64,000 bases of DNA, taken from positions 25,792,001-25,856,000 of the forward strand of contig OZ024745.1 of NCBI GenBank assembly GCA_964016885.1, given 5' to 3'. The notes beneath the pieces were generated by a model. It was not told where the DNA came from and searched no databases. It saw only the letters and a program-made list of their open reading frames with translations. This DNA comes from Eledone cirrhosa (taxonomy: Eukaryota). A program made the position numbers and the translations under genes. Each line of letters starts with the position of its first letter. Position 1 is the stretch's first letter. This document shows positions 1-61,820 of this stretch, piece after piece.

Positions 1-759
1 GTGGCATAATCAAAAACAATACATCATAGAGATATAGAGCTTTTGTGAGGTCTGCCGACTTATCAAGAGGATACCTCATTTTACTAGCTTCAAAGAGTAC
101 GTCTATAAGATGTGAGATAGAATCCCAAAAGGCGGAGGGGGAGTCAATCACGTGATACGACGGTCAAGAAACAGAGCTAAGCCCCTTATAACCCTGAAAA
201 AAATACCACGAAGGCGGAGGGGGTATTCATATCGAGGCTGTAGAAGAGGTGGTTAAGGAGACAAGAAGTATGAGAAATGGCAGCTTTCCAGCAGTCACTA
301 CACTTCAAGGATTACTCGACCAGGGGGAGTTATAAACAATATATTGAGAAACACACAGATACATGCGGACACATACATGAATATATCCACATCCATCCTT
401 AGTTAATGGTGCCAACCTTAACCGATGTTGCTCTATGAATAACTGGGACAAACCAATCCGAATGGATTAGACTGAACCAGTATCAGAGCTAAAAGTACAT
501 TATGAAGAGAGAAGAAACATTTAGATATAATTAGTAATAAGATGTATCATACCTAAACTGCTTCTAGATTCCTCGACTACGTAGTTTCGTGGCATAATCA
601 AAAACAATACATCATAGAGATATAGAGCTTTTGTGAGGTCTGCCGACTTATCAAGAAGATACCTCATTTTACTAGCTTCAAAGAGCACGTCTATAAGATG
701 TGAGATAGAATCCCAAAAGGCGGAGGGGGAGTCAATCACGTGATACGACGGTCAAGAAA
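1..759. repeat. Direct repeat of >=170 bp (1-171 and 589-759), period 588 bp, unclassified
   Basis: gtggcataatcaaaaac...gacggtcaagaaa occurs at 1 and 589 with about 2 substitutions. Confidence 0.9.
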
Positions 760-2779: not shown

Positions 2780-2949
2780 TAGGGTTGGAGTCAGAAAGGG
2801 CATCTGGCTTTAAAGATTATTCGAAATCATCCCATGCCAGCCCGGAAAAGTAGAGGTAAAAACGATGACACACGCACACACACATATTTATATATATATA
2901 TATAGTGACGAAACATAAGTCAATTGCATGAACTCATAATCCTTTATTT

Positions 2950-3005
2950 ACTGCTATATATATTTCGATGATAGCCATTGAATGGCTATGACCTCATCAG
3001 GCAGT
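2950..3005 (-). ncRNA. Type I hammerhead ribozyme (Penelope-like), intact core
   Basis: actgc CTGATGA ggtc-atagccat-tca-atggctat-catc GAAA tatata TA gcagt, followed by AATAAA. Confidence 0.85.
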
Positions 3006-3071
3006 TAGTCAGTTCTTAGATATGCCAGCTCTGTGTTTATAGTGTCGATGGTATCAGAGCCTTGGGACATA

Positions 3072-3113
<42 letters not shown>

Positions 3114-3525: not shown

Positions 3526-3793
3526 GTATATATATATATGTATATATATATAGGATATTCAATTTGTTGGTAATTCAACAAATATAAATGTTTATAACTG
3601 ATTCAGAGCACTCGGCAGATTTTTCTGGAGTATAATATACAATGATATTAAATAAATTAAATCATTTGCATACTCATCTTAATAATTTGAAATATCTGAC
3701 TTCTCTTCTCTTATCCCTTCACTATCCAAGGAAAACTTGAATCGTTAAGGTATATTCTCCTTGGTTATGGCAAAATTTATAAAACACACTTCG

Positions 3794-4247
3794 TATTTTA
3801 TTTGATGATAGCGTACCAAAATTTTGGAACCCTTGAAATATATCTTTATATATATAAAAGCGAGGATTTGTGTGTGTCTGTGTACAACTTTGCATACGTA
3901 AGGCTTTTACAATTACCAACTGAATTTGACCAAATTGTCTGTGTACATTGCACAGGTCGCTAAGATTGTCACATCAGAAACATTTTTCAAATCGACCCAC
4001 GTTAAGCAATAAAAAATCGATATCAAAATTATCGGTAGCAAAATTGATGTAAGGGAGATAACCAACTTTATTGACAATCCTTAATAAAAAGGAAGATAAC
4101 CAACTTTATTGTCAATCCTTATAAAGAGACTGCTTATTTTGACAGGTTGGGGACAAATAATGTTCTTTTACTTCCTAGCTGTATATTCTTAGCATAATTT
4201 CAAACCCCGAGCAACGCCGAGTAAATCTGCTAGCATATAATAGAATA
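3794..4247 (+). ncRNA. Degenerate hammerhead (TTGATGA core) interrupted by a Helitron
   Basis: tattttat TTGATGA ... GAAA tata [Helitron] catata atagaata; homologous to 34404-34468. Confidence 0.65.
3843..4233 (+). mobile_element. Non-autonomous Helitron
   Basis: 5' A^TCTTTATATATATAAAAG; 3' GC-rich hairpin cccgagcaacgccgag followed by CTAG; no TSD. Confidence 0.75.
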
Positions 4248-4291
4248 AATATGGTTTTATAAATATAGTTTCCATTTATTTAATATCATTG

Positions 4292-7545: not shown

Positions 7546-8515
7546 TATATGTATGATATACCAGACGTAGCGTCTATTAAAATGGTTAAAGAAGTTCGAT
7601 TCACAATCACGTGGCTTCAGCTTCGATTCCATTGCATTGCATTTTCATCAAATTTATTTTACTTTGAATCAACCCAAGTGAAATACCATCGCATAACCAA
7701 TTTATCGACTATACTTGTAATTCAAAAGGTCAGCTGTGTCATGCTGAATCTGCCGTAGAATGCCGAATACAAAGTCACTTACCCGTTAGTTTAATGAGTA
7801 GGCCGTTCTGTTGTTTGAACCGACGGAGGACCATTTATTTATTATTTTGTTTATATCTACCTCGCATATATTGGATGCATAGAGGGACGGAAAGCATTGT
7901 ATAGTTTTTAAATGACTCATTGTGTTAATTCCTGTAATTTCATTGATTAACTCTTGTTAGCTAGAACATTCTTCAGTAATTGAAATACATTACATAAGCA
8001 AACGATGTAATGCCAGTTTAAATCTTTTGAATAATATATAAGAATATAAATGAATTCAATAAATTCACAGAGCTCAGATATTTGACAATTGGTTACTTCC
8101 AGCCTCAGATCCTTAAATCGTCGCTCAATAAATCAGCCTTTGGGCAACAAGTGAGCATCTGTGTGGTCACTCGATCTGCTAGAAATAGCAACAAAATCTC
8201 CCTTAAATCACACCGTTAGATATTGTAGTCTTGGGTTCCTTGCATATAGGAAAAAGACGGAACAGTCACGACTGGAATGCCTTGATCATAGTTCTACTCA
8301 ATTAGGGATGACCTGTAACTAAACAAGTAGAGGTCAGTTTTCCCTATATTTTGAAGTGTTAATATTTTTTCAAAAACAGTTTAATATTGAAGAAGTTTAT
8401 TATTTCATTAAATACCCTCAAATTCTTTATTATTTTCAAAATGATTAGCAATGTCTTTCGTAAGAAATACGGTAATAAATGGGTTAATGTTTTTACGTAT
8501 TTATTGTCTCAGAGA

Positions 8516-8707
8516 AGGGCGGTGAATTGGCAGTATCGGTAGAGGGTTGGACGCCATGCTTTCCAGCATAGCTACGTCCCTTTACGGTCTGAGTTCAAAT
8601 CCCGTCGAGGTTAACTTTGCCTTTCATCCTTACGGGGTCGAAAAAATAAAGTAGCAGTAATGCATTGGGTAATTGCTGGCCTTGTGCCAAAAGTAGAAAC
8701 AGTTATT
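8516..8707 (+). mobile_element. tRNA-derived SINE, family A
   Basis: A box tggcagtatcgg, B box gagttcaaatcc, central gcctttcatccttacggggtcga. Confidence 0.88.
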
Positions 8708-9938: not shown

Positions 9939-9982
<44 letters not shown>

Positions 9983-9984
<2 letters not shown>

Positions 9985-10022
9985 GCTAGGTTTGCTTGGG
10001 TTCGTGGCCGGCCTTCATTTAA

Positions 10023-10064
<42 letters not shown>

Positions 10065-10104
10065 TTAAATGAAGGCCGGCCACGAACCCAAGCAAACCTA
10101 GCCC
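9983..10104. repeat. Perfect 44-bp inverted repeat around (TA)17
   Basis: 9983-10026 is the reverse complement of 10061-10104. Confidence 0.95.
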
Positions 10105-10584
10105 ATATATCTACAAGAGACCTAAAACTATACCACTCAAGGATGAGGAGCTAAATCACGTTCATCCACCTAACTACGCCCCAACACCCTGGTAAACTAT
10201 CCAGCGACCCGCTCCAATCAAATGGTATGGGGATGACGGGTGCCATCAAGCTACAGCCGTTGTATTACGTAGTCTCTAATGTGTGTGTGTGTGTGTGTGC
10301 GCGTATTAAACTTAATACATGTACAGGCACGTGCTTGTAAATGAATTATTTAAGTTTTGCGTGTATTATAAACCAATCACACATACACACAAACGTGTGT
10401 GTGTGTTTCTGTGTGTGTGTCTCTCTCTCTCTATCTCTCTCTCTCTCTCTGTGTTTCTATGTGTGTGTAATTAAATGTTGCAATATATACAATCGCTTAT
10501 CTTAGTCCTAGTTCTCGTATGTATATTTAATTTAATATCTGTATGTAAAGAATTTCTTGTTTCCAGTTTATTCAGATGTTCAAC

Positions 10585-18178: not shown

Positions 18179-18679
18179 TGTGTATATATATTTATATATA
18201 TACACACAGATAACTTAGTTGAACTGTATATCATCTCTGGTGGGTAAACATGATTATATCACAAAGAGTATTCAAAAGTACATCTTCCCTAGTAATATTA
18301 AGTTTTTTTTATTTTTTATCTTAATATAATATCATTTATGAGTTTTACTACAAATGTTATAACTAAGAGTTTAAAGCGCTGGACTTCAACCACGAAAACG
18401 TCTGTAGTTTGAAGCCAATGAAGGGAACCTCTACATAAACGCTTAACTCAATACAAATAGCAGCTAAGTGCCAGGTGGTCGTGTTAAAACTGGTGACATA
18501 TTAAGTTTATCAAACAAGTAAGCCACAGAGGAATTTAAACTAAACAATTCTAATATTTCCGTCAATTGGTATTTTATTTTATCGGCCTCAGAAGGGTGAA
18601 AGGCTAAGTTGACCGACGCCTTACCAATTTAATCCCAAAGAGAAGAAACCGAAACATTATTCTCTGAATGTTCCTTAAA

Positions 18680-18716
18680 CTCTGAAGATGGGAATTTTAA
18701 GTCCCGAAATATTAGG
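18680..18716 (+). ncRNA. Minimal hammerhead motif
   Basis: CTGAAGA t ggga attttaag tccc GAAA tat TA; stem I weak. Confidence 0.55.
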
Positions 18717-19135
18717 ACTGAAGAAAGAACAGCAACAACAAAAAACAAAACAAAGATTACATGGTAACTTACTTTTTCGTTACCTCATCTTACAATCCAT
18801 TTTGCATTGTTGAGCCTTATACCTCTTTCCACATTATGTGTGTTTGTATGTATATATATGTGTGTGTGTGACAGTGTATTTAGGAGCTCTAGCCCTAGTG
18901 CTGTTAAAAATACTCTCCGTGAATCTTTTCAATAATACCTTACCGGCGCCACTCGAGTAAGGTAATTATTTAACTCATAAATGGGGCTCTAACATAAATG
19001 GGGCTCTACTGTTCCAGGCCAGGGCAGACCTGGGAGTGATAACAACTAAGAGGTAACTCCACATTCCCCCACAGTTCCTGAACTCCTGAACTGGAGCCTT
19101 GTCACTGGATGCAGTATGATGTCACATCCAGACCA

Positions 19136-20870: not shown

Positions 20871-21480
20871 TGTCAGGTCACCAGTTGGTGCTACTGGTAA
20901 CATGTATTCCAGTACAACCTGTCTCATGGTCGGGTCGTTGGCGACTAAACTGGCAACCCCACCAAGGTTTCTTGGTGAGGAGGGTGACTTTGGACATCCT
21001 GCAGGACTAAAAACAAAACCTGTCAAAGGGCAAAGGAGCTCTTAAGAGTCAATGGCCATCCAAAATCACCGGGAGAGATGACCCCTTAGCCTTTGTCAAG
21101 GCAGAATTCTAGGAGAAGGAAAACTCTGATATAACACCTGCGACTCTGATGGTATCCAATGATGTTGACTTGTTCTTCTTTTTGGTAAATATCATCTTGG
21201 TTAAGAGAGTGGGACTGGCTTTGTGCAGTGCCTTTGCTCACTATAAAAGCTTCACGGCACAGGCATTGCTTTATATCTGGAGATCTCTCTGCACTTGTCG
21301 TCACATGGTACCATGGCCCAGCACTATGTGTCAATAATTGTCACAAGTGTAGTGTTTGTTCCAGAGTTTTCAAGTCGTTGGCTGGACTAAAAAGTCACAC
21401 CCGTTCGGCGCATCGGTAGGGGTTCTCCTATATGGATATAGAGTAGTGGCCGTACTCGAAAACGAGTTGGCAGCCACCAT
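20871..21480 (+). mobile_element. Non-autonomous bipartite RTE-derived element, copy 1
   Basis: RTE-type 5' UTR motif ctaggagaaggaaaactctga; C-terminal zinc finger [22 protein letters not shown]; 3' stem-loop ctcgaaaacgag; (AT)n tail. Confidence 0.85.
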
Positions 21481-29006: not shown

Positions 29007-29126
29007 TTATTGACACGTGTTTCTATAACTGTTACATAACCTAAAACAGCTGCTATCTACAAACTTTTAGTTATGCAGACATTCAATATTTCAATGTTAT
29101 TATTTACTGTCATTTCATCAGAATAA
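29007..29126 (-). ncRNA. Hammerhead with intact core boxes and a 91-nt stem-II domain
   Basis: ttatt CTGATGA [91 nt] GAAA cacgtg TC aataa; partial second copy at 36349-36485. Confidence 0.6.
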
Positions 29127-29157
29127 TATTACTGAGGACCTATTTAGTTTTTATAGA

Positions 29158-31937: not shown

Positions 31938-32024
31938 GGAAAATTTGAACAGGAACAAGACAGAGAGGCAGTACAACGAATGTTTATTAATTTCACGCTC
32001 TTGAGAGTGGGGTGGTGGTGGGGA

Positions 32025-32056
32025 ACGACGTTTCGGGCATAAGCCCTTCTTCAGGT
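32025..32056 (-). ncRNA. Minimal Penelope-type hammerhead
   Basis: ac CTGAAGA a gggc ttat gccc GAAA cg TC gt; AATAAA ~37 nt downstream. Confidence 0.75.
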
Positions 32057-32362
32057 GAAGAGTTCAAAGGGTGTGTAGGGGAGTGGTGGAGAGACATATA
32101 GCTAAAAGGGGGTGGGAGGAAACGGTGCAAGGGAAATTAAAAATAAAGCATGATCAAATTAAAATTAAAATGGGGTGAAACAGGTGGTGGAAGGGTGTGG
32201 GGCGTGTAGGGGTGGTGGCGGGTGGAGTGGGGAGAGGGAGACGGGGTGTCCGAGCGGGGAGGGCTGAATGTGGTGTGTGTGTGTAGGTGTACGTGTGTGT
32301 GTGTATGTGAAAGCAAGGGTTGGGAGAAGAACGGGGTTGCATGTTCAGGAAGAGGTGTATGT

Positions 32363-34218: not shown

Positions 34219-34403
34219 CTGCCAATAAAAACACACGTACCAATCAAGTCACTATCCCATTCATTGGTAGCTTTAGTAACTGATGAATGAATTAGTGATG
34301 ACATATATATATATATATCGGCTGGAAAGTCACTGGATAGTGAATTTCCAACCGATAAGGTACAATTTTCATGGGTACGTCTCTATTTATAAAACAAAAT
34401 TTG

Positions 34404-34468
34404 TATTTTATCTGATGAAAGCGCACCAATATTGTCTTGGTCGCCCTTGAAATATATATAATAAAATA
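34404..34468 (+). ncRNA. Type I hammerhead ribozyme, intact core, 8-bp stem I
   Basis: tattttat CTGATGA aagcgcaccaa tattgtc ttggtcgccctt GAAA tatata TA ataaaata. Confidence 0.85.
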
Positions 34469-34903
34469 GATATGGTTTTATAAATATATTTCCCTTTATT
34501 TAATATTATGGAATATTTACTCCAGTAATTTGTTGAGTGCTCTAAATCAGTTATAAACATTTATGTTTGTCGGATTTCCAACAAATTAAATACAACTTCC
34601 ACACACATACACACACACACACACATATATATATATTGAAAAGTGTGTAAGGTTCTATATAAACAAGAGCTTATACAAAAAAAATAGTACGAATGGAAAA
34701 CAACACGGAAGTATATTTTAAGAAACTTTTTTTAACCCGACAAAGTGTTATTGAAAAAAAAATGGCGAAAAACAATTTTTTACAAAAGAGGTTTTATAAA
34801 ATACATAAAAAAATTACCTGTTTCCATATAATCCATCTTATCAAATATTAAATATCGAAATTATGAATTAAAAATTAAGGGTTGAAGCAGGTCTATTCAC
34901 ATT

Positions 34904-34958
<55 letters not shown>

Positions 34959-35563
34959 TGTGTGTGTGTGGTGTGTGTGTGTGTGTGTATATATGTATGT
35001 GTGAGTGAGTGAGTCCCGGGTTCAATCGGGGATAACCACAGTTAGTAAGGTACTCAATACATTAGTGGAGTGTAAACATCATGTTTAATATAGAAATACC
35101 TTCTACAGGATTAGAACTGTTTCATTCAAAAAAACCATCTCGATTTGGAGGTATATAAGTTAGACGGACTAAAATATTTTATCTTTATATTTTATCATTT
35201 CATTGTCTAATTATTAGAGACAAATAAATTTCTACTATATATATACATATATATATATATATATAAACTTAAGAAAAGCAGCAAAGAAGCCTTAAAAAAT
35301 TATTTTTGAAAATTAAAAATACAAACGAAGGACAAAGAACTCCAGGGCCATCGGCTGTTGAAGTAGACTTTGGCATCTCGACCTTTACCAACGGCACTGC
35401 TGGTCTACCCGGGGTCACAGCCACTAATATAAGCCAAACCCTGTCCAGTGGAGTAAGAAGTGAGAGACAAAATATTAATTCATAGCAATTAAGATATAAC
35501 AAGAACACAGTATTTTATTTGACGCCAGGAAAAAAGTGTGGTGCCTCTTATAGCACGGGAGTC

Positions 35564-35627
<64 letters not shown>

Positions 35628-35894
35628 CGGTTGAATTCAGAAACATAGGGAATTTTGAAATATGTGTCCAAACGTATACGAACATAATGAAAGTGGCTCA
35701 CTAAAGAATAGTTGAGAAATTTGAGTAAACCACTATTAAGGTCACTTGCGTTGGGAACCACATATTTGAAATATATATATACACACACATATACATATAT
35801 ATATATATTACACTGCTAGCGTAAACCTCTTCAAATGAAGTTGAAGTTTATTACGGTATGTCGAATATATTTATCTATAAAACTGTTTATATTG

Positions 35895-35960
35895 TATTTT
35901 GTCTGATGAAGGCATAGCATATTGTTAATATGATATCCCCGAAATATATATAATGAAATA
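35895..35960 (+). ncRNA. Type I hammerhead, same element family, different stem II sequence
   Basis: tattttgt CTGATGA aggcatagcatatt gtt aatatgatatcccc GAAA tatata TA atgaaata. Confidence 0.8.
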
Positions 35961-36226
35961 AATATGGTTTTATAAATATAGTTTTCCATTTATTTAATAT
36001 TGCAAATATACTCCAAATACTTGTCGAGTGCTTTTATATCAGTTATAAATATTTACTAGTTGTAACCCAACAATTTTAAATATAACTTTACATATATATA
36101 TATATATATTTTTTTTTTTATTATATATTAATATATACATATATAATACCCTTAACATATGAGTTATATATATTTATATATATATATGAATGAATGAGGT
36201 ATAAAAGTATATGCATAAACATAAAT

Positions 36227-42652: not shown

Positions 42653-43080
42653 TAACTAAAAAGCTCTGTAGCCTACATAGAGCACTCTCTTTTCATTTAC
42701 CTTTCCTACGGAAATACTTCATTTATATATAGAGAGAGAGATGGCTTCTACATGACTAGATCTGTTTCAGAAGAAATCATCAGGAAAGGCTTTCCTGACG
42801 ATTTCTTTTGAATGAAGCAGTTCTAGTCCTGTAGAAGCCATTTCTATATTAAACATGATGTGTGTGTTTATTCACATTTTAAGAAACGGTAGTGCCATTA
42901 GAGCATAAGAAAAACATGTTTACGTCATTGTTCTAGCTCTCTGCTTTCTGAATAACTCCATCCGAAGTTAACTGGGCATTTCTCCTTTATGAGCCTTAAA
43001 GAAATGTATTACCAGTGAATGGAAGTGACCCTGCAGAACTAGTACAGCATTAGAAGAAATGCCTTGTGCTTTTCTCTCAC

Positions 43081-44925: not shown

Positions 44926-46338
44926 TTATTACTATTAGAACAAGACTGACTCCTTCAAATCAAGATTAGGGACACTTAGGGATTACATTCCTTTAGGGAT
45001 CTTTCTTTGGTGCCGTATGTTTGGTCGTTCAAATTAAGTTTGACACCGTTTTCAGTAAGCTTTGCAATATTCTACTATTTAAGACTGTGATGTACTTTTT
45101 GTCTAAACACTTTTAATATATGTACATATATGTATATATACGTATGTATACATGTATGTTTTGTGTGGGGCCTTAGAAAACTCCTGCTTTATATCTGGTA
45201 TTTTCTTAGATTTAAGAGTGAGGCACCATTTAGCTTCCTTTAACTCTTAATATCCTGTACCACACCAAACTGCATTAGCAACCCATTCTTGTGCAACTCT
45301 GACTGTATCATATTAAAAATTAAAGTCCGTGCTTTAGTTTACTGCAAATTATCACAATGATCTGTCTACTAGTAAAGATACTATAAACATTTGAATTAAC
45401 ATCTTTTTAGTTATTTTCTGCCAAATAATTACAGTATATTAAGAGTTAAAACTTGGTTCTAAGAGAAGTTTAATCTGATACAAGGTTAATTGTGGAGAAA
45501 ATGAGCTGGGGGTATTTTAGGTATCTTCAGCACCGGCTGATGATAATGATGCTGCTGCCACACTTATTGTTCTTAGATAGATATCTTGCCTTGTTTTGTC
45601 TCTGCTTCTTGACAGCCCTCATGTGGTGAGGATCTATCAAATATTATGTAAGCCTTAATTTTATAACTCTGTATAAACATTGATCAATCTTCCTTCAGCC
45701 TGTTAGACACAAATGGATAGCTATTACACACGCACACTCATAGTTGCTGTGAGTCACGGGTTCAATCGGGGATAACCAGAGTAAGGTACTCAATACATTA
45801 GTAGAGTGCATACAGCAAATGAAACAGTTCTAGTCTTGTAGAAGCCACTTCTATTTTAAAGTTGTTATATATATATATATATATATGAATGATCGTTGGC
45901 TGAAGAAATGTCACGAAGTCTCAGTGGAAGGAAGTTGCAGCAGAGAGTTTGAGGATGACCCGGGTGGAAGATGAGAGAACTGATCTCAAGTCACTGAAGC
46001 TCATAGAGGAGATGATAAATGATAACGACTGCAGGGATACAGTAGGGGAAAGGATCCGTCCAACCCACGCAAGCATGAAAAAGCAGTTGTAAAAGTATGT
46101 ACAAGTGTCTTTCGGGTTAACCAGTGCCTCGAAGGTGTAAATTTAGTAGACGGAAACTGTGCGGCCAGTTGGCTGTATGTGCACAAGTATAGATGTGTGG
46201 GAGTGTGTACAAGTCTGTTGATTAAGTCCTGTAACTAGCGGTTCGACAAAAAGTGAACGATAAAATAAGTACCAGACCTTGTGTCAGTAGGATCGACTAA
46301 ATACGTTGTGTGTGTGTGTCTCTCTCTCTCTCTTTCTC

Positions 46339-53381: not shown

Positions 53382-54291
53382 CACATTGAATGTGCTCAGG
53401 CGCTCACAGTCCTCTTTCAAGTGGGCACAGCAATCAGTGGAGACTCCACTTCGACGTTCTATAGAGGGTTAGTACGTTGCAAGTGCGACGACATGCTCGG
53501 AGAGGCTCTGGGCATCGAAGACGATGAGCTCTCCAGTCTGTTCGGTAGGACTTTCCGCCCAGGACCCATGGACAACTTCCAGAGGTCCCTGGCCTGGCAG
53601 TGCTACAAAGGAGCTCTACCAGTTCGAGACAAGATCTACAGGCACGGACGCCCCGACAGGGATCCTTCCAAGAGGACGTGTCCAAGATGCGAGCAGGACA
53701 TTGAAACCATCTTGCACGCAATTGTACACTGCCCAGGCATAACCGACCTGTGGAACTACGCAGAACAACTGCTGTCGCGTATGGGACAAATCCAGTTGAC
53801 TGCCAAGTCCATAGTAAGGATCAAACCGCCAACTTCTTTCAAAAACGAAAGAGAGGCGGTTTTCCTCTGTATAGTGGCTATGGTAAAAGAGATTATATGG
53901 TGGACGAGATTGAGAGGACTGAGGACAGATGCCTTTCTCTCCGGACAACAACTCATTCCCTTCTTTAGGTACCACTTTAGAAGGAGAATCAGAGTGGAGA
54001 GAGAAGCACTGCACCCCAGTAAATTTACTGAAAGGTGGGTGAATGTAGCAAAAATGGCCCAAGTGATTGGGCCTACTCTGTATATAAACGTGTAGGTTGA
54101 AGAAGAGAGCAAAAGGAAGGAGCACTTGCACAACACACTCCTGAAGTTGAGGGCTGTTCTATCGACGGGGTATTGAACAACCCATTTGTAATGCCCCCCC
54201 CCCCCCCTATTGGGGATTTCGATTGTTAAATTTGTTTGTTGATAATATTTTTTTACAGCGATTGTGCGCCCTTGTGGCAAATAAAGAAATA
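53382..54291 (+). mobile_element. 5'-truncated Tx1/L1-clade LINE (ORF2 C-terminal zinc finger + 3' UTR)
   Basis: CPRCEQDIETILHAIVHC (CCHC, zf-RVT type); AATAAA; 10-bp TSD tatctgttag at 53372-53381 and 54292-54301. Confidence 0.88.
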
Positions 54292-56345: not shown

Positions 56346-58653
56346 TCACTCCTCACCTATGTAGCACCAATAAAATCATTTATCTCTCCTTAAATTCTAT
56401 CTTTTTCAATAATGTAAAACTGCTCCAATTGGCCTCCATTCTTTATTACTAGTTAACTTCAATGACCTCATAGGGTTAAATAACTTTTAAAATCCTCCCT
56501 GCATTAAAGATGTTACCATTATTTAGTTATTTAGTCTCTAAATAATTCCCTTTTTCCTGAGCTAACCAATGTACAAATACTTCCATCACTACTTTTGCAT
56601 CAGATTGGGCTATATTTTGCTGATGAAGACAGAATAAAACTAAAACCTGTCTGGAGTTCTCTCCCATATTAACCAGAAAAAGGAATATTTTAGTCATTGT
56701 ATTTTGCCTCATAGTGTATATATTTCTTGTTAACATATTTAATGAAGAAAGCATTAACAAGTTAACATAAACCCAACTAGCCATCATCTGGTTTCAGTTT
56801 TGTGCTGTCTTAATCTTAAAAAAATGTATCAAAACCAGTGATATGAAGATGAGTCATCATCATCATCATTTAGCTACTGTTCTCCATGCTAACAAGAGTT
56901 GGGTGTGTTATCACAGACTTGTCACTACTTGAACAGAGACACAACTGAAGAGTAACTCTTAAAAATGTTCTACCATTTGATGCAGTCTAAGCATAAATTT
57001 CTAAATTTTCCATGAAAGAAATTTTCCATACTTTATCTATTAAATACCAGTGTTTTAAATATTTTCTCATTTATTTTTATTCAATTTCTATATTGCTGAA
57101 ATTTTGATCACGAGTCCTGCACCTTAACCAATAGGCCATATGCCTTCTCAGGCATATAGCTTAATGTTAAGGGTACTGTGGTTACAATGATTAGGTCATG
57201 GATTTGATTCTTGGGCTGAGTGACACATCATGCTCATAAGCAAGTCCATTCATCTGAAAAATGAGTACCAACAGCAGCTGAAGTACTGACCTTGCTATGG
57301 ACTGATGTTCTGTCTAGGCTTGAGAAAGAATTTTAATGAAACCTAACTTCCAAACAATATCTGATCCTATAAACCCTCCTCAACCCTCATACCAAATAAG
57401 CAATCATTCTGTTATTAATTAAGATAAGATATAGGGTGGTGGATTGATAGTATCGGTGGAGCATCAGACAACATGCTTTGTGGCATCAATTACAACCCTT
57501 AATGTACTGAGTTCAAATCTCAGTTTTGCCTGACATCCTTACCGGGTTGATAAAATACAGTACCAGTAATGGACTGGAGTTGATTTAATTCACAAAATTG
57601 TTGGCATTGTGTTTATATGAGAAAGGATTGTTAAGATAAATTAATCTAGTCTACAAAGAAGTTAGATCCTGGAAGGTTTGCATCAAACAAAGCTATAAAA
57701 AGATTTTTGGATGAAAAAGCAATCTATTAAGACACTACACTATACAAATTCTTCAAAACCAAAATGATCAGAAGATAGTTCACTGTCAAGGACATGATAA
57801 CCTCCCTAGGGCCATGGTACAGTACACTCTATAAAGTGGTTGGAACAAGGAAGGGAATCCTACTTAGAAACAATGCCAAAACTAAAATATAAGTGAGACA
57901 TAGCTTCTAGTCTATCTAGAAGGACAGTAGCTCTGATTAAGTACTAATTCGGTCTGTGGAGTCCTATACAATTCATGTCAGAATGGAAAAACTGATGTTA
58001 AATGGTGATGATGATAAATCTCAACAAGGAAAATCTAAACTTTATGACTTGATATAAGATGTCAATCTTCACTTCTATACAATATAATACTAATAATTTG
58101 ATTAAACACCACTGATTGATATCCATGTTATAATAAAGCCATATATAGATTGATATACAGGTGTCATGGATGAGTGGTTGTGAGGTGTACGTCACAACTA
58201 TGTGGCTTGTTATTTCACTGAATAACATTGAGCAAGTGTCTTCTATTTAGACTAGAACTGATCAATGCTTTGTAAGTGAATTTAGAAGATGGAAACTCCA
58301 TGGATGGGTGTCATATATATGTGTTTGTGTATATATGTTTATATATATGTGTGTGTGTGTCTGTGTGTATATGTGTGTATATATAAATACAAAGAGTGAC
58401 AATAAGAAGTCAGATTTGCAGTTTGTTATGAAACTTTATTGTATATTACAATTGTGTTGATATCAATCAGCTTGGGTTTGATCAGGTGATCAGATCCCAA
58501 TGCTTAATCGACACTTTTTCAGATATGCAAGTTTACATACTTTACAAGTTTACAAACTCATATAATAACATATATGTATATATGTATATATATATATATA
58601 TATATTATGAAAATAAACCAAAGAAGCCTTCAATACATCAAAAGTCTTTATTA

Positions 58654-58691
58654 GCCAACAATGTTTCATCCTATTAAGGACTCATCAGGGC
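58654..58691 (-). ncRNA. Type I hammerhead ribozyme, intact core
   Basis: gcc CTGATGA gtcct taat aggat GAAAC att GTT ggc, then t AATAAA. Confidence 0.8.
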
Positions 58692-58734
58692 AATTAAATC
58701 TATAAGAAGCACTATCGGCCAATAAAAGCCACAA

Positions 58735-59523: not shown

Positions 59524-60681
59524 ATATATATATATGTGTGTGTATATATATATATGTGTGTGTATATATATATATATGTGTGTATATATATATATATGTG
59601 TGTGTATATATATATATGTGTGTGTATATATATATGTGTGTGTATATATATATATGTGTGTATATATATATATATGTGTGTGTATATATATATATGTGTG
59701 TATATATATATATATGTGTGTATATATATATATATGTGTGTATATATATATATATGTGTGTATATATATATATATATGTGTGTATATATATATGTATGTG
59801 TGTGTATATATATATATGTGTGTGTATATATATATATGTGTGTGTATATATATATATGTGTGTATATATATATATATGTGTGTATATATATATATATATG
59901 TGTGTATATATATATGTGTGTATATATATATATATGTGTGTATATATATATATATGTGTGTATATATATATATATGTGTGTATATATATATATATATGTG
60001 TATATATATATATATATGTGTGTATATATATATATATATGTGTGTATATATATATATATATGTGTGTGTATATATATATATATATGTGTGTGTATATATA
60101 TATATATATGTGTGTGTATATATATATATATGTGTGTGTATATATATATATATATGTGTGTGTATATATATATATATATGTGTGTGTGTATATATATATA
60201 TGTGTGTGTATATATATATATATATGTGTGTGTATATATATATATATATGTGTGTATATATATATATGTGTGTGTATATATATATATGTGTGTGTATATA
60301 TATATATGTGTGTGTATATATATATATGTGTGTATATATATATATGTGTGTATATATATATGTGTGTGTATATATATATATATGTGTGTATATATATATA
60401 TGTGTGTGTATATATATATATGTGTGTGTATATATATATATGTGTGTGTATATATATATGTGTATATATATATATATGTGTGTGTGTATATATGTGTGTA
60501 TATATGTGTGTGTATATATATGTGTGTGTATATATATATGTGTGTGTATATATATATATGTGTGTGTATATATATATATGTGTGTGTATATATATGTGTG
60601 TGTATATATATGTGTGTATATATATATATGAGTGTATATATATATATGAGTGTATATATATATATGTGTGTATATATATAT
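58735..60681. repeat. ~1.95-kb compound (TA)n(TG)n array
   Basis: Direct reading. Confidence 0.95.
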
Positions 60682-61820
60682 GGAAAAAGATGAAAGAAAG
60701 GGTCTCAAAGTCAACCTGACAAAGACTAAGGTCCTTGTAAATAGACTAGAAAACAGAACCCAGATCCCCTCAGGCAAATGGCCTTGCTCAGTATGTAGGA
60801 AAGGTGTAGGTAGGAACTCCATTCTCTGCCCCAAATGCAAACAATGGGTACACAAGAGATGTAGCGGGATCTCAGGAAGCTTAATTAAGAATGTAGGCTT
60901 CACATGTAGCAGCTGTGCTGGGGCAGCAAACAGCCACAGGAAACAAGTACCACCAATCTCTAGGAGGGCTCTGTAGAAACAGTAGACAGCTTCTGCTACC
61001 TAGGTGACCGAATTAGCAGCGGAGGTTGGTGTTCAGAAAGTACAATAACTAGGGTAAGAACGGGATGGAAGACATTCAGGGAACTACTGCCACTGCTAGC
61101 TGCAAAAGGCTTTTCCCTCAAAATGAAAGGCAGACTGTATGATGCGTGTATATGAACAGCAATGTTACATGGTAGTAAGACCTAGGCGCTGAAGGTGGAA
61201 GACTTACGTAGATTAGAAACAAACGAAGCCTGCATGCTCTGATGGATGTGTAATAGTAATATACGCGAACGGCAAAGCATAAATGAATTGAGAGAGAGAC
61301 TGAGCATAAGAGGAATCAAATGCTGTGTGCAGGAGTGGCGGTTGCGTTGGTATGGACATGTGATGCGTCTGAAGGATGACAGCTGCATAAAAAGGTGCAG
61401 AGCACTAGAAGTCATTGGAAACCGCGGAGTGAGGAGACCCAAGAAGACCTGGGATGAGGTGATAAAAGCCGACCATACCCAATTACAGCTCTCAAAGGCG
61501 ATGACACACGACCGTGACCTCTGGCGTCATGCAGTAATACAGAGTACCCGACCTCCCATGGGTACAAGCTGAAGCATATCGACAATATGCCCCCCACACC
61601 CTCCCACTGTAAAATGGACGTGGAGGTGCCACGGCAAAAAAGCACCCAGCACTCACTGTAAATGAGGTTGGTGTTAGGAAGGGCATCCAGCTGTAGAAAT
61701 CAAGCCAAAATCAGTTCCTGTGTGAGCAAGGCATGGTCAGCTGATCAGACACTGCCCACAATAGGACAACCCGTCTAACCCATGCTAGCATGGAAGAACG
61801 GACGTAAAATGGTGATGATG
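60682..61820 (+). mobile_element. Decayed RTE(-X)-like LINE 3' part with PHD-like Cys cluster
   Basis: [58 protein letters not shown]; stops and frameshifts. Confidence 0.9.

What the first reader, a model, noticed from the sequence alone, without database searches (positions are those of the whole stretch)
34318..36090. A ~300-bp hammerhead element family with conserved fold but replaced stem II
Seen: copies at ~34318-34600, ~35830-36090 and ~3740-4290 share flanks (aatatggttttataaatata..; in the first two also gagtgc..atcagttataaa). Stem II differs in sequence (accaa/ttggt, catatt/aatatg, ccaaa/tttgg) yet always pairs, and stem I (tattttat/ataaaata) is kept with G-U wobbles. In the 34404 copy the poly(A) signal overlaps the cleavage site and the 3' strand of stem I. 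Inference: selection on RNA structure; cleavage and polyadenylation could compete.
Basis: partly seen in the sequence, partly recalled or inferred. Interest (0 to 1): 0.75.

Follow-up and report, generated by a model that had tools for sequence, protein, structure and literature searches.

The report
Hydra-Penelope retrotransposon ends with hammerheads
The three hammerhead-bearing repeats are the cut-short ends of three related protein-coding Penelope-like jumping genes, a known kind of element; their predicted self-cutting RNA fold is conserved between families rather than in individual copies, and a poly(A)-type signal that sits just past the predicted cut site likely helps decide how the RNA is ended (untested).

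Summary
Observation largely confirmed, interpretation redirected. Copies A (34318-34600), B (35811-36093) and C (3552-4291) are 5'-truncated ends (pLTRs) of three families of Hydra-clade Penelope-like retrotransposons. B is about 99% identical to both pLTRs of a full element, and an intact 737-aa reverse-transcriptase ORF with Hydra motifs exists. The hammerhead pattern occurs 27,416 times against 38 control. Stems covary across families: 12 of 14 pairs show double changes, 0/500 shuffles. Private mutations in copies hit the core as often as flanks, so selection likely acted on master elements, not on these copies. Copy C is dead: C3U plus a Helitron-like insert. New details: a C.C mismatch in stem II (88% of matches); an AWTAAA hexamer 0-13 nt past the cut in 9 of 9 lineages at shifting offsets; and 5' ends clustered at an initiator-like motif about 140 nt above the cut. 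Only 3 of 100 B arms start at the cut. No RNA data, so cleavage and poly(A) use are untested. The scan found this same kind of element before, in this and other genomes.

The parts
34318..34342 (-). Copy A: short inverted 5' stub (fold-back of the element's own start region)
   Evidence: the same junction recurs in many family-A loci
34339..34600 (+). Copy A: truncated pLTR with tail, family A; followed by (CA)n/(TA)n
   Evidence: 93% identical to the pLTR downstream of a same-strand Hydra ORF in L206; 4.2% from its family majority
34404..34468 (+). Type I hammerhead motif A (core 34412-18 and 34449-52; C.C mismatch in stem II; palindromic helix III; predicted cut after 34460)
34460..34465 (+). 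AATAAA over the predicted cut; the family's second hexamer at +5 is mutated in this copy
35811..36093 (+). Copy B: solo pLTR from the initiator-like motif (35811-14) to the far 3' end, between (TA)n tracts; young family
   Evidence: 98.9% to both pLTRs of L111; 97.5-97.9% to pLTRs around the intact ORF of L246
35895..35960 (+). Type I hammerhead motif B (A.C at the base of stem II; predicted cut after 35952)
35957..35962 (+). AATAAA 5 nt past the predicted cut
   Evidence: 14 of 16 B-cluster copies
36003..36093 (+). ~90-nt optional tail between the two recurrent 3' ends (+50 and +141 from the cut); inferred reverse-transcription start sites
   Evidence: 16 of 30 arms end at about +50 and 14 of 30 at +141/142; by analogy with PMC11167929
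3552..3661 (-). Copy C: inverted, tail-bearing arm
3662..4291 (+). Copy C: forward tail-less arm, family C; hammerhead disabled (U3 at 3802, helix III interrupted)
   Evidence: family C pLTR lies downstream of Hydra ORF pieces in L113
3843..4233 (+). 391-bp independent repeat, TC...CTAG ends, Helitron-like (label recalled), inserted in helix III of copy C
   Evidence: 40 of 40 scored hits at 88-100%; ends
2897..3072 (-).
   Evidence: 66.7 bits

Best explanation
The three repeats are truncated terminal repeats (pLTRs) of three related Hydra-clade Penelope-like retrotransposon families, inserted in TA microsatellites and likely copied by the elements' own reverse transcriptase from RNA that the hammerhead had not cut. 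Shown: the link to a 737-aa ORF, two recurrent 3' ends (+50, +141), inverted arms, clustered 5' ends, between-family covariation and neutral-looking decay of copies. Inferred: transcription starts at an initiator-like YYCACT about 130-140 nt above the cut. The enzyme primes inside the RNA at either 3' end and runs off at the RNA's 5' end, which gives the common ~190 and ~280 bp copies. The hammerhead, with a 2-bp palindromic helix III, is predicted to cut weakly and only as a dimer or with protein help. It matters in master elements (pLTR-ORF-pLTR) and not in these solo copies. The hexamer just past the cut is likely the element's poly(A) signal.
For: Full element pLTR-ORF-pLTR with an inverted truncated copy (L111). 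Intact ORF in L246 with RWR, DKT, YRDD, CxCX5C, CxxC and CxH, matching PMC8557442 section 11. Model pLDDT 88; the top five fold matches are telomerase RTs. A and C pLTRs also lie downstream of such ORFs (A vs B proteins 66%). TA repeats follow 29 of 30 B arms. 5' ends: 17 of 30 B arms start 134-146 nt above the cut; 34 of 46 A arms start at -1..+13 of the motif (set biased by the query). 2,470 of 2,679 exact post-cut matches continue through the cut; 3 of the first 100 start at or within about 9 nt of it. Covariation. Internal priming and uncut templates are shown in vitro for an anole PLE (PMC11167929).
Against: No RNA was available, so start site, cleavage and poly(A) use are unmeasured. Pfam gives no hit for the ORF, and GIY-YIG hits only 2 of 49 aligned proteins weakly. 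No tree with published Hydra sequences was built. The hammerhead fold is not the minimum-energy fold (A -5.3 vs -10.3; B -1.7 vs -8.5 kcal/mol), and free co-folding gave other dimers. The base pair of stem II is often non-canonical. The 5' hotspot also lies at small palindromes, so fold-back alone could cause it. The neutrality test rests on 11 core events.
Confidence: 0.85

Rival explanations
1. The ~280-bp units are a self-sustaining non-autonomous family (SINE-like or retrozyme-like): solo copies carry the internal promoter and both priming sites and are themselves re-copied.
For: 26 of 30 B arms are under about 290 nt above the cut; fixed 5' and 3' ends; solo copy B holds the whole unit. 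A preprint derives animal retrozymes from pLTRs (10.64898/2026.07.22.740005).
Against: Short copies are about 98-99% identical to pLTRs of coding elements. No tandem arrays: in the first 100 matches no same-strand neighbours lie closer than 2.2 kb (by eye). Copies do not start at the cut.
Confidence: 0.2
2. Individual copies are host-selected RNA switches in which self-cleavage competes with polyadenylation of host transcripts.
For: Intact cores in A and B; hexamer at or near the cut. Precedent: the Clec2 3'UTR hammerhead (PMC6765202 passage).
Against: Private mutations are not depleted in the core. Copy C is destroyed. No host exon was identified near 34-36 kb among 59 ORFs scanned (small exons would be missed).
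Confidence: 0.05
3. The fold is a catalytically silent relic or protein-binding structure, and the hexamer is a by-product of A-rich sequence.
For: Non-canonical 10.1-11.1 pairs even in the youngest family; weak predicted stability; templates are uncut. In the anole PLE, hammerhead mutants still insert in vitro. Only 3 of 23 published Hydra families show AWTAAA there (by eye).
Against: Full core, cleavage triplet and self-complementary helix III are kept with covarying stems in 9 lineages. Hexamer offsets shift between lineages; it is in 84 of 95 copies at 0-19 vs 0 of 95 at 20-39.
Confidence: 0.15

Closest known systems
Hydra clade of C-terminal EN+ Penelope-like elements, incl. Hydra-1_Obim (Craig et al. 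2021, PMC8557442; passages, section 11 and supplement tables seen)
   Same: Single RT-endonuclease ORF; RWK-like, DKT, CxCX5C, CxxC and CxH motifs; (TA)n targets; pLTR hammerhead; inverted 5'-truncated arms; tail on one arm.
   Different: A different family: the published Hydra-1_oBim hammerhead has another core variant and helix III. Unit about 4.1-4.2 kb with a long 3'UTR vs generally <3 kb; tail about 90 nt vs 30-40; very high copy number.
Minimal and palindromic-helix-III PLE hammerheads (Cervera and de la Pena 2014, PMC4209133; parts 1-2 of 4 read)
   Same: Type I, long helix II, short palindromic helix III, predicted dimer; many variable families with compensatory changes in one genome; mostly solo truncated copies.
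   Different: G10.1-C11.1 is not conserved here (A-U, A.C, U.U, G-U, G-C); fixed C.C mismatch at the fourth stem II position; invariant (AU)4 helix III word equal to the target microsatellite; helix I up to 8 bp.
Poseidon element PAc of Anolis (Frangieh et al. 2024, PMC11167929; main text read)
   Same: Two 3' ends defining a tail; uncut RNA as the dominant template.
   Different: In PAc the ORF starts inside the hammerhead; here the ATG lies about 187 nt past the cut, beyond both ends.
Non-LTR retrozymes (Cervera and de la Pena 2020, PMC7229834, passages)
   Same: About 300 bp, AT-rich, type I hammerhead.
   Different: Not tandem; tied to coding elements; copies do not begin at the cut.

Membership tests
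Type I hammerhead ribozyme | CUGANGA and GAAA core with NUH site | tested here: met
   Met for A and B (triplet AUA); not met for copy C (U3, insert)
Type I hammerhead ribozyme | Helices I and II supported by covariation | tested here: met
   87.5% of cells paired vs 72.0 shuffled and 35-57 slid; 42/45 and 43/45 in 9 lineages. Relatedness inflates both tests; R-scape not available
Type I hammerhead ribozyme | Self-cleavage | not testable with these tools
   No assay; no RNA reads
PLE minimal hammerhead (Cervera 2014) | Short palindromic helix III | tested here: met
   8-nt self-complementary word
PLE minimal hammerhead (Cervera 2014) | Conserved G10.1-C11.1 pair | tested here: not met
   G-C in 20 of 95 copies
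Hydra-clade PLE | Telomerase-like RT with C-terminal GIY-YIG domain in one ORF | tested here: met
   for RT; the endonuclease rests on the YVG motif and weak Pfam hits in 2 of 49 homologues
Hydra-clade PLE | RWK, DKT, CxCX5C linker, CxxC and CxH | tested here: met
   (RWR variant at 37, DKT 118, CxCX5C 596, CxxC 694, CxH 721)
Hydra-clade PLE | CCHH motif absent | tested here: inconclusive
   Not seen by eye; no alignment to canonical PLE endonucleases made
Hydra-clade PLE | (TA)n targets, pLTRs, inverted arms, tail | tested here: met
Hydra-clade PLE | Generally under 3 kb (descriptive, not defining) | tested here: not met
   pLTR to pLTR 4.1 kb (L246) and 4.2 kb (L111)
Hydra-clade PLE | Placement in a tree with published Hydra RTs | not tested
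   Published proteins compared by eye only
Non-LTR retrozyme | Tandem 150-450 bp units, each with a hammerhead | tested here: not met
   listing (first 100 of 27,416, one chromosome end)

The most novel reading that the evidence does not exclude
In this Hydra subclade the pLTR is a three-way RNA switch. A poly(A) signal kept directly behind the hammerhead cut ends mRNAs at the 3' pLTR, before its priming sites, so such mRNAs can be primed only in the 5' pLTR and yield the mass of ~190/280-bp mini-copies. Full-length copies need read-through or hammerhead-made circles, and stem I folding or cleavage removes the signal. That would give PLE hammerheads, whose role is an open question, a concrete job, testable in a young family with an intact ORF.
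Probability: 0.25. Interest if true: 0.65.

Novelty: new member of a known kind. Interest (0 to 1): 0.35.

Why it matters
Mostly a correction: these are ordinary ends of a known retroelement clade, not a new ribozyme family. The useful residue is a natural variant library of at least 27,000 hammerhead motifs that Rfam missed in the stretch tested, with a conserved C.C mismatch and a conserved downstream hexamer, plus a very young family with an intact ORF. These make the unsolved role of PLE hammerheads testable.

Tried and rejected
Rfam: no hammerhead among the 150 of 461 matches listed for the window or the 19 for 34300-36100. Pfam found nothing for ORF pieces or the whole ORF. The single-sequence structure model failed (pLDDT 31). 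PDB sequence search gave only a weak retron RT hit (E 0.016). Sequencing runs: no RNA holder listed. Contigs of 4 runs of unknown kind showed no splice-like joint and say nothing on expression. Intron around the hammerhead: a donor-like GTAYGT lies about 39-45 nt past the inferred start in A, B and D but not C or E, resembling Penelope's intron at +46 (PMC2377424 passage); left open. Poly(A)-ended genomic copies: 6 places with A>=9 within about 40 nt of the hexamer vs 1 T-run control; 3 end the element in A15-21 at 12, 31 and 38 nt, while 1 is a duplication, 1 is not the element and 1 follows a TA-rich break; scattered, so weak. Shared hairpin before the first 3' end (lead from earlier notes): inconsistent minimum-energy folds across 19 representatives, -0.7 to -11.6 kcal/mol; inconclusive. 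Cleavage-defined 5' ends: rejected as the main route. Literature: five searches; none surfaced the C.C mismatch (0 papers) or a PLE hammerhead-linked poly(A) signal (1 review, about Clec2). Subscription papers are not covered; Lunse et al. 2016 on dimeric PLE hammerheads was seen only as a title in a reference list and may bear on both points.

Full report
Observation. The sequence shows hammerhead cores at 34412 and 35903 and a damaged one at 3802. A and B align at 77% over 205 nt, and C matches in three pieces, one of them inverted. Rfam does not recognise them. In the 3.0-Gb genome the pattern CTGATGA-N16-44-GAAATATATATH occurs 27,416 times against 38 for the reversed control; arms of inverted pairs count separately. 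The host is likely an octopod; this is inferred from the nearest named protein (Argonauta hians, 39%) and from earlier AI notes.

Three families. The 39 best other hits were 90-95% identical for A, 99-100% for B and 94-97% for C. Many carry an inverted, tail-less arm directly upstream and abut (TA)n. Walking upstream from long A copies reached a same-strand ORF about 1.3 kb away. For B, locus L111 shows an inverted truncated copy, a pLTR, an ORF (broken by a 65-nt duplication), a long 3'UTR and an identical pLTR. L246 holds an intact 737-aa ORF. Its motifs match the Hydra clade as defined in PMC8557442 section 11. A model from a 49-sequence alignment (49 = the query plus 48 of 136 homologues found) has pLDDT 88, and its five best matches are telomerase RTs. 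Family C pLTRs also lie downstream of such ORF pieces, and A and B proteins are 66% identical. The published Hydra-1_Obim is a different family by eye. Copy C is interrupted in helix III by an independent 391-bp repeat with TC and CTAG ends.

Structure. I extracted 95 distinct motifs from loci covering the first 100 pattern matches, all near one end of contig C1. For 20 hand-picked representatives, 87.5% of cells pair, 12 of 14 pairs change on both sides, and 0 of 500 shuffles reach this; slid controls give 35-57%. At the level of 9 hand-grouped lineages (87 of the 95 copies), stem I pairs 42 of 45 (shuffled 32.5) and stem II 43 of 45 (31.9). The pattern imposed the core but not the pairing; relatedness still inflates both tests. 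The fourth stem II position is C.C in 89 of 95 copies and in 24,127 of 27,416 genome matches. The basal pair varies and is G-C in only 20 of 95. Stem II of B links to the A/C type through intermediate subfamilies, so replacement was likely stepwise. Helix III is a self-complementary 8-mer, and the hammerhead fold is 5-7 kcal/mol above the minimum-energy fold. This fits the low-activity dimer type described in PMC4209133.

Where selection acts. In 50 A and 29 C copies (best hit per locus), private non-CpG changes were 11/1024 in the core and 134/13,508 in flanks (p=0.74). This excludes strong, but not weak, selection on copies. Conservation therefore likely reflects master elements.

Ends. In 30 B arms chosen by a post-cut pattern, 3' ends fall at about +50 (16) or +141/142 (14), 29 are followed by TA repeats and none by poly(A). 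Seventeen start 134-146 nt above the cut, at a YYCACT motif that looks like an initiator (consensus recalled); 4 extend 600 nt or more. Family A shows the same clustering, 34 of 46 arms, in a set biased by its query. Exact counts show 2,470 of 2,679 post-cut matches continuing through the cut. Of the 6 exceptions in the first 100, 3 start at or next to the cut, where TA microhomology blurs the junction, and 3 are mutations. Templates were thus mostly uncut, as for the anole element in vitro (PMC11167929). Penelope has an internal promoter in its repeat (PMC2377424 passages). I infer priming at two internal sites and run-off at the transcription start.

Poly(A) idea. AATAAA lies within 20 nt past the cut in 7 of 9 lineage representatives, against 0.34 expected from shuffles; the other two have ATTAAA. 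Offsets are 0, 5, 7, 12 and 13. It is in 84 of 95 copies, against 0 at +20..39 and 0-1 upstream. A further lineage seen later (L243) has it at +6 and also has C.C. Against: the window was chosen after looking, lineages are related, only 3 of 23 published Hydra families show it (by eye), and poly(A)-ended genomic copies are rare and scattered. No RNA run was listed. Use as a poly(A) signal is therefore inferred and competition with cleavage is untested.

Other papers seen: 10.64898/2026.07.22.740005 part 1 of 5; passages of PMC13282606 (no mention of hammerheads in its main text), PMC6765202 and PMC7229834. Earlier scan notes reached the same Hydra-PLE reading on other DNA; my reading was recorded before. 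Look-ups by sequence, place and the poly(A) words returned nothing.

Verdict. Real hammerhead motifs with real between-family covariation, belonging to new families of a known retroelement clade. Interest 0.35; the novel case (a poly(A)/hammerhead switch) has probability 0.25 and would rate 0.65.

Noticed in passing
window 2897-3072 (-): Intact hammerhead copy of related family E with a short inverted arm; 16 of the 95 sampled motifs cluster with it.
   Followed up: partly
window ~58640-58700 (-), ~32020-32065 (-), ~29080-29130 (-), ~18670-18730 (+): Further hammerhead-like cores in other repeat families; the one at 58688 also has AATAAA a few bases past its predicted cut.
   Followed up: partly
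window 9982-10105: Near-perfect palindrome with (TA)n at its centre; top Rfam score is only a generic hairpin match.
   Followed up: no
window 35011-35245: Another dispersed repeat between copies A and B, present in 19 fetched loci and at 42803-42861 and 45751-45860.
   Followed up: partly
window 21189-21416 (+), 60650-60973 (+), 53382-54092 (+): ORF pieces with a C2H2 finger, a PHD finger and a zf-RVT hit; host gene or transposon status not resolved.
   Followed up: no
L111:7634-7847 (-) and 8445-8620 (+): An inverted pair of a related family sits in the (TA)n right behind the full B element; these elements nest in each other's TA flanks.
   Followed up: partly
L259:1330-1533: Inverted insertion in which one arm stops 12 nt after AATAAA with A15 before (TA)n: the best single candidate for a copy of a polyadenylated RNA.
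   Followed up: partly
L118:6041-9898 (just downstream of the window): Long 39-bp-unit tandem array with open frames over 1,000 codons.
   Followed up: no
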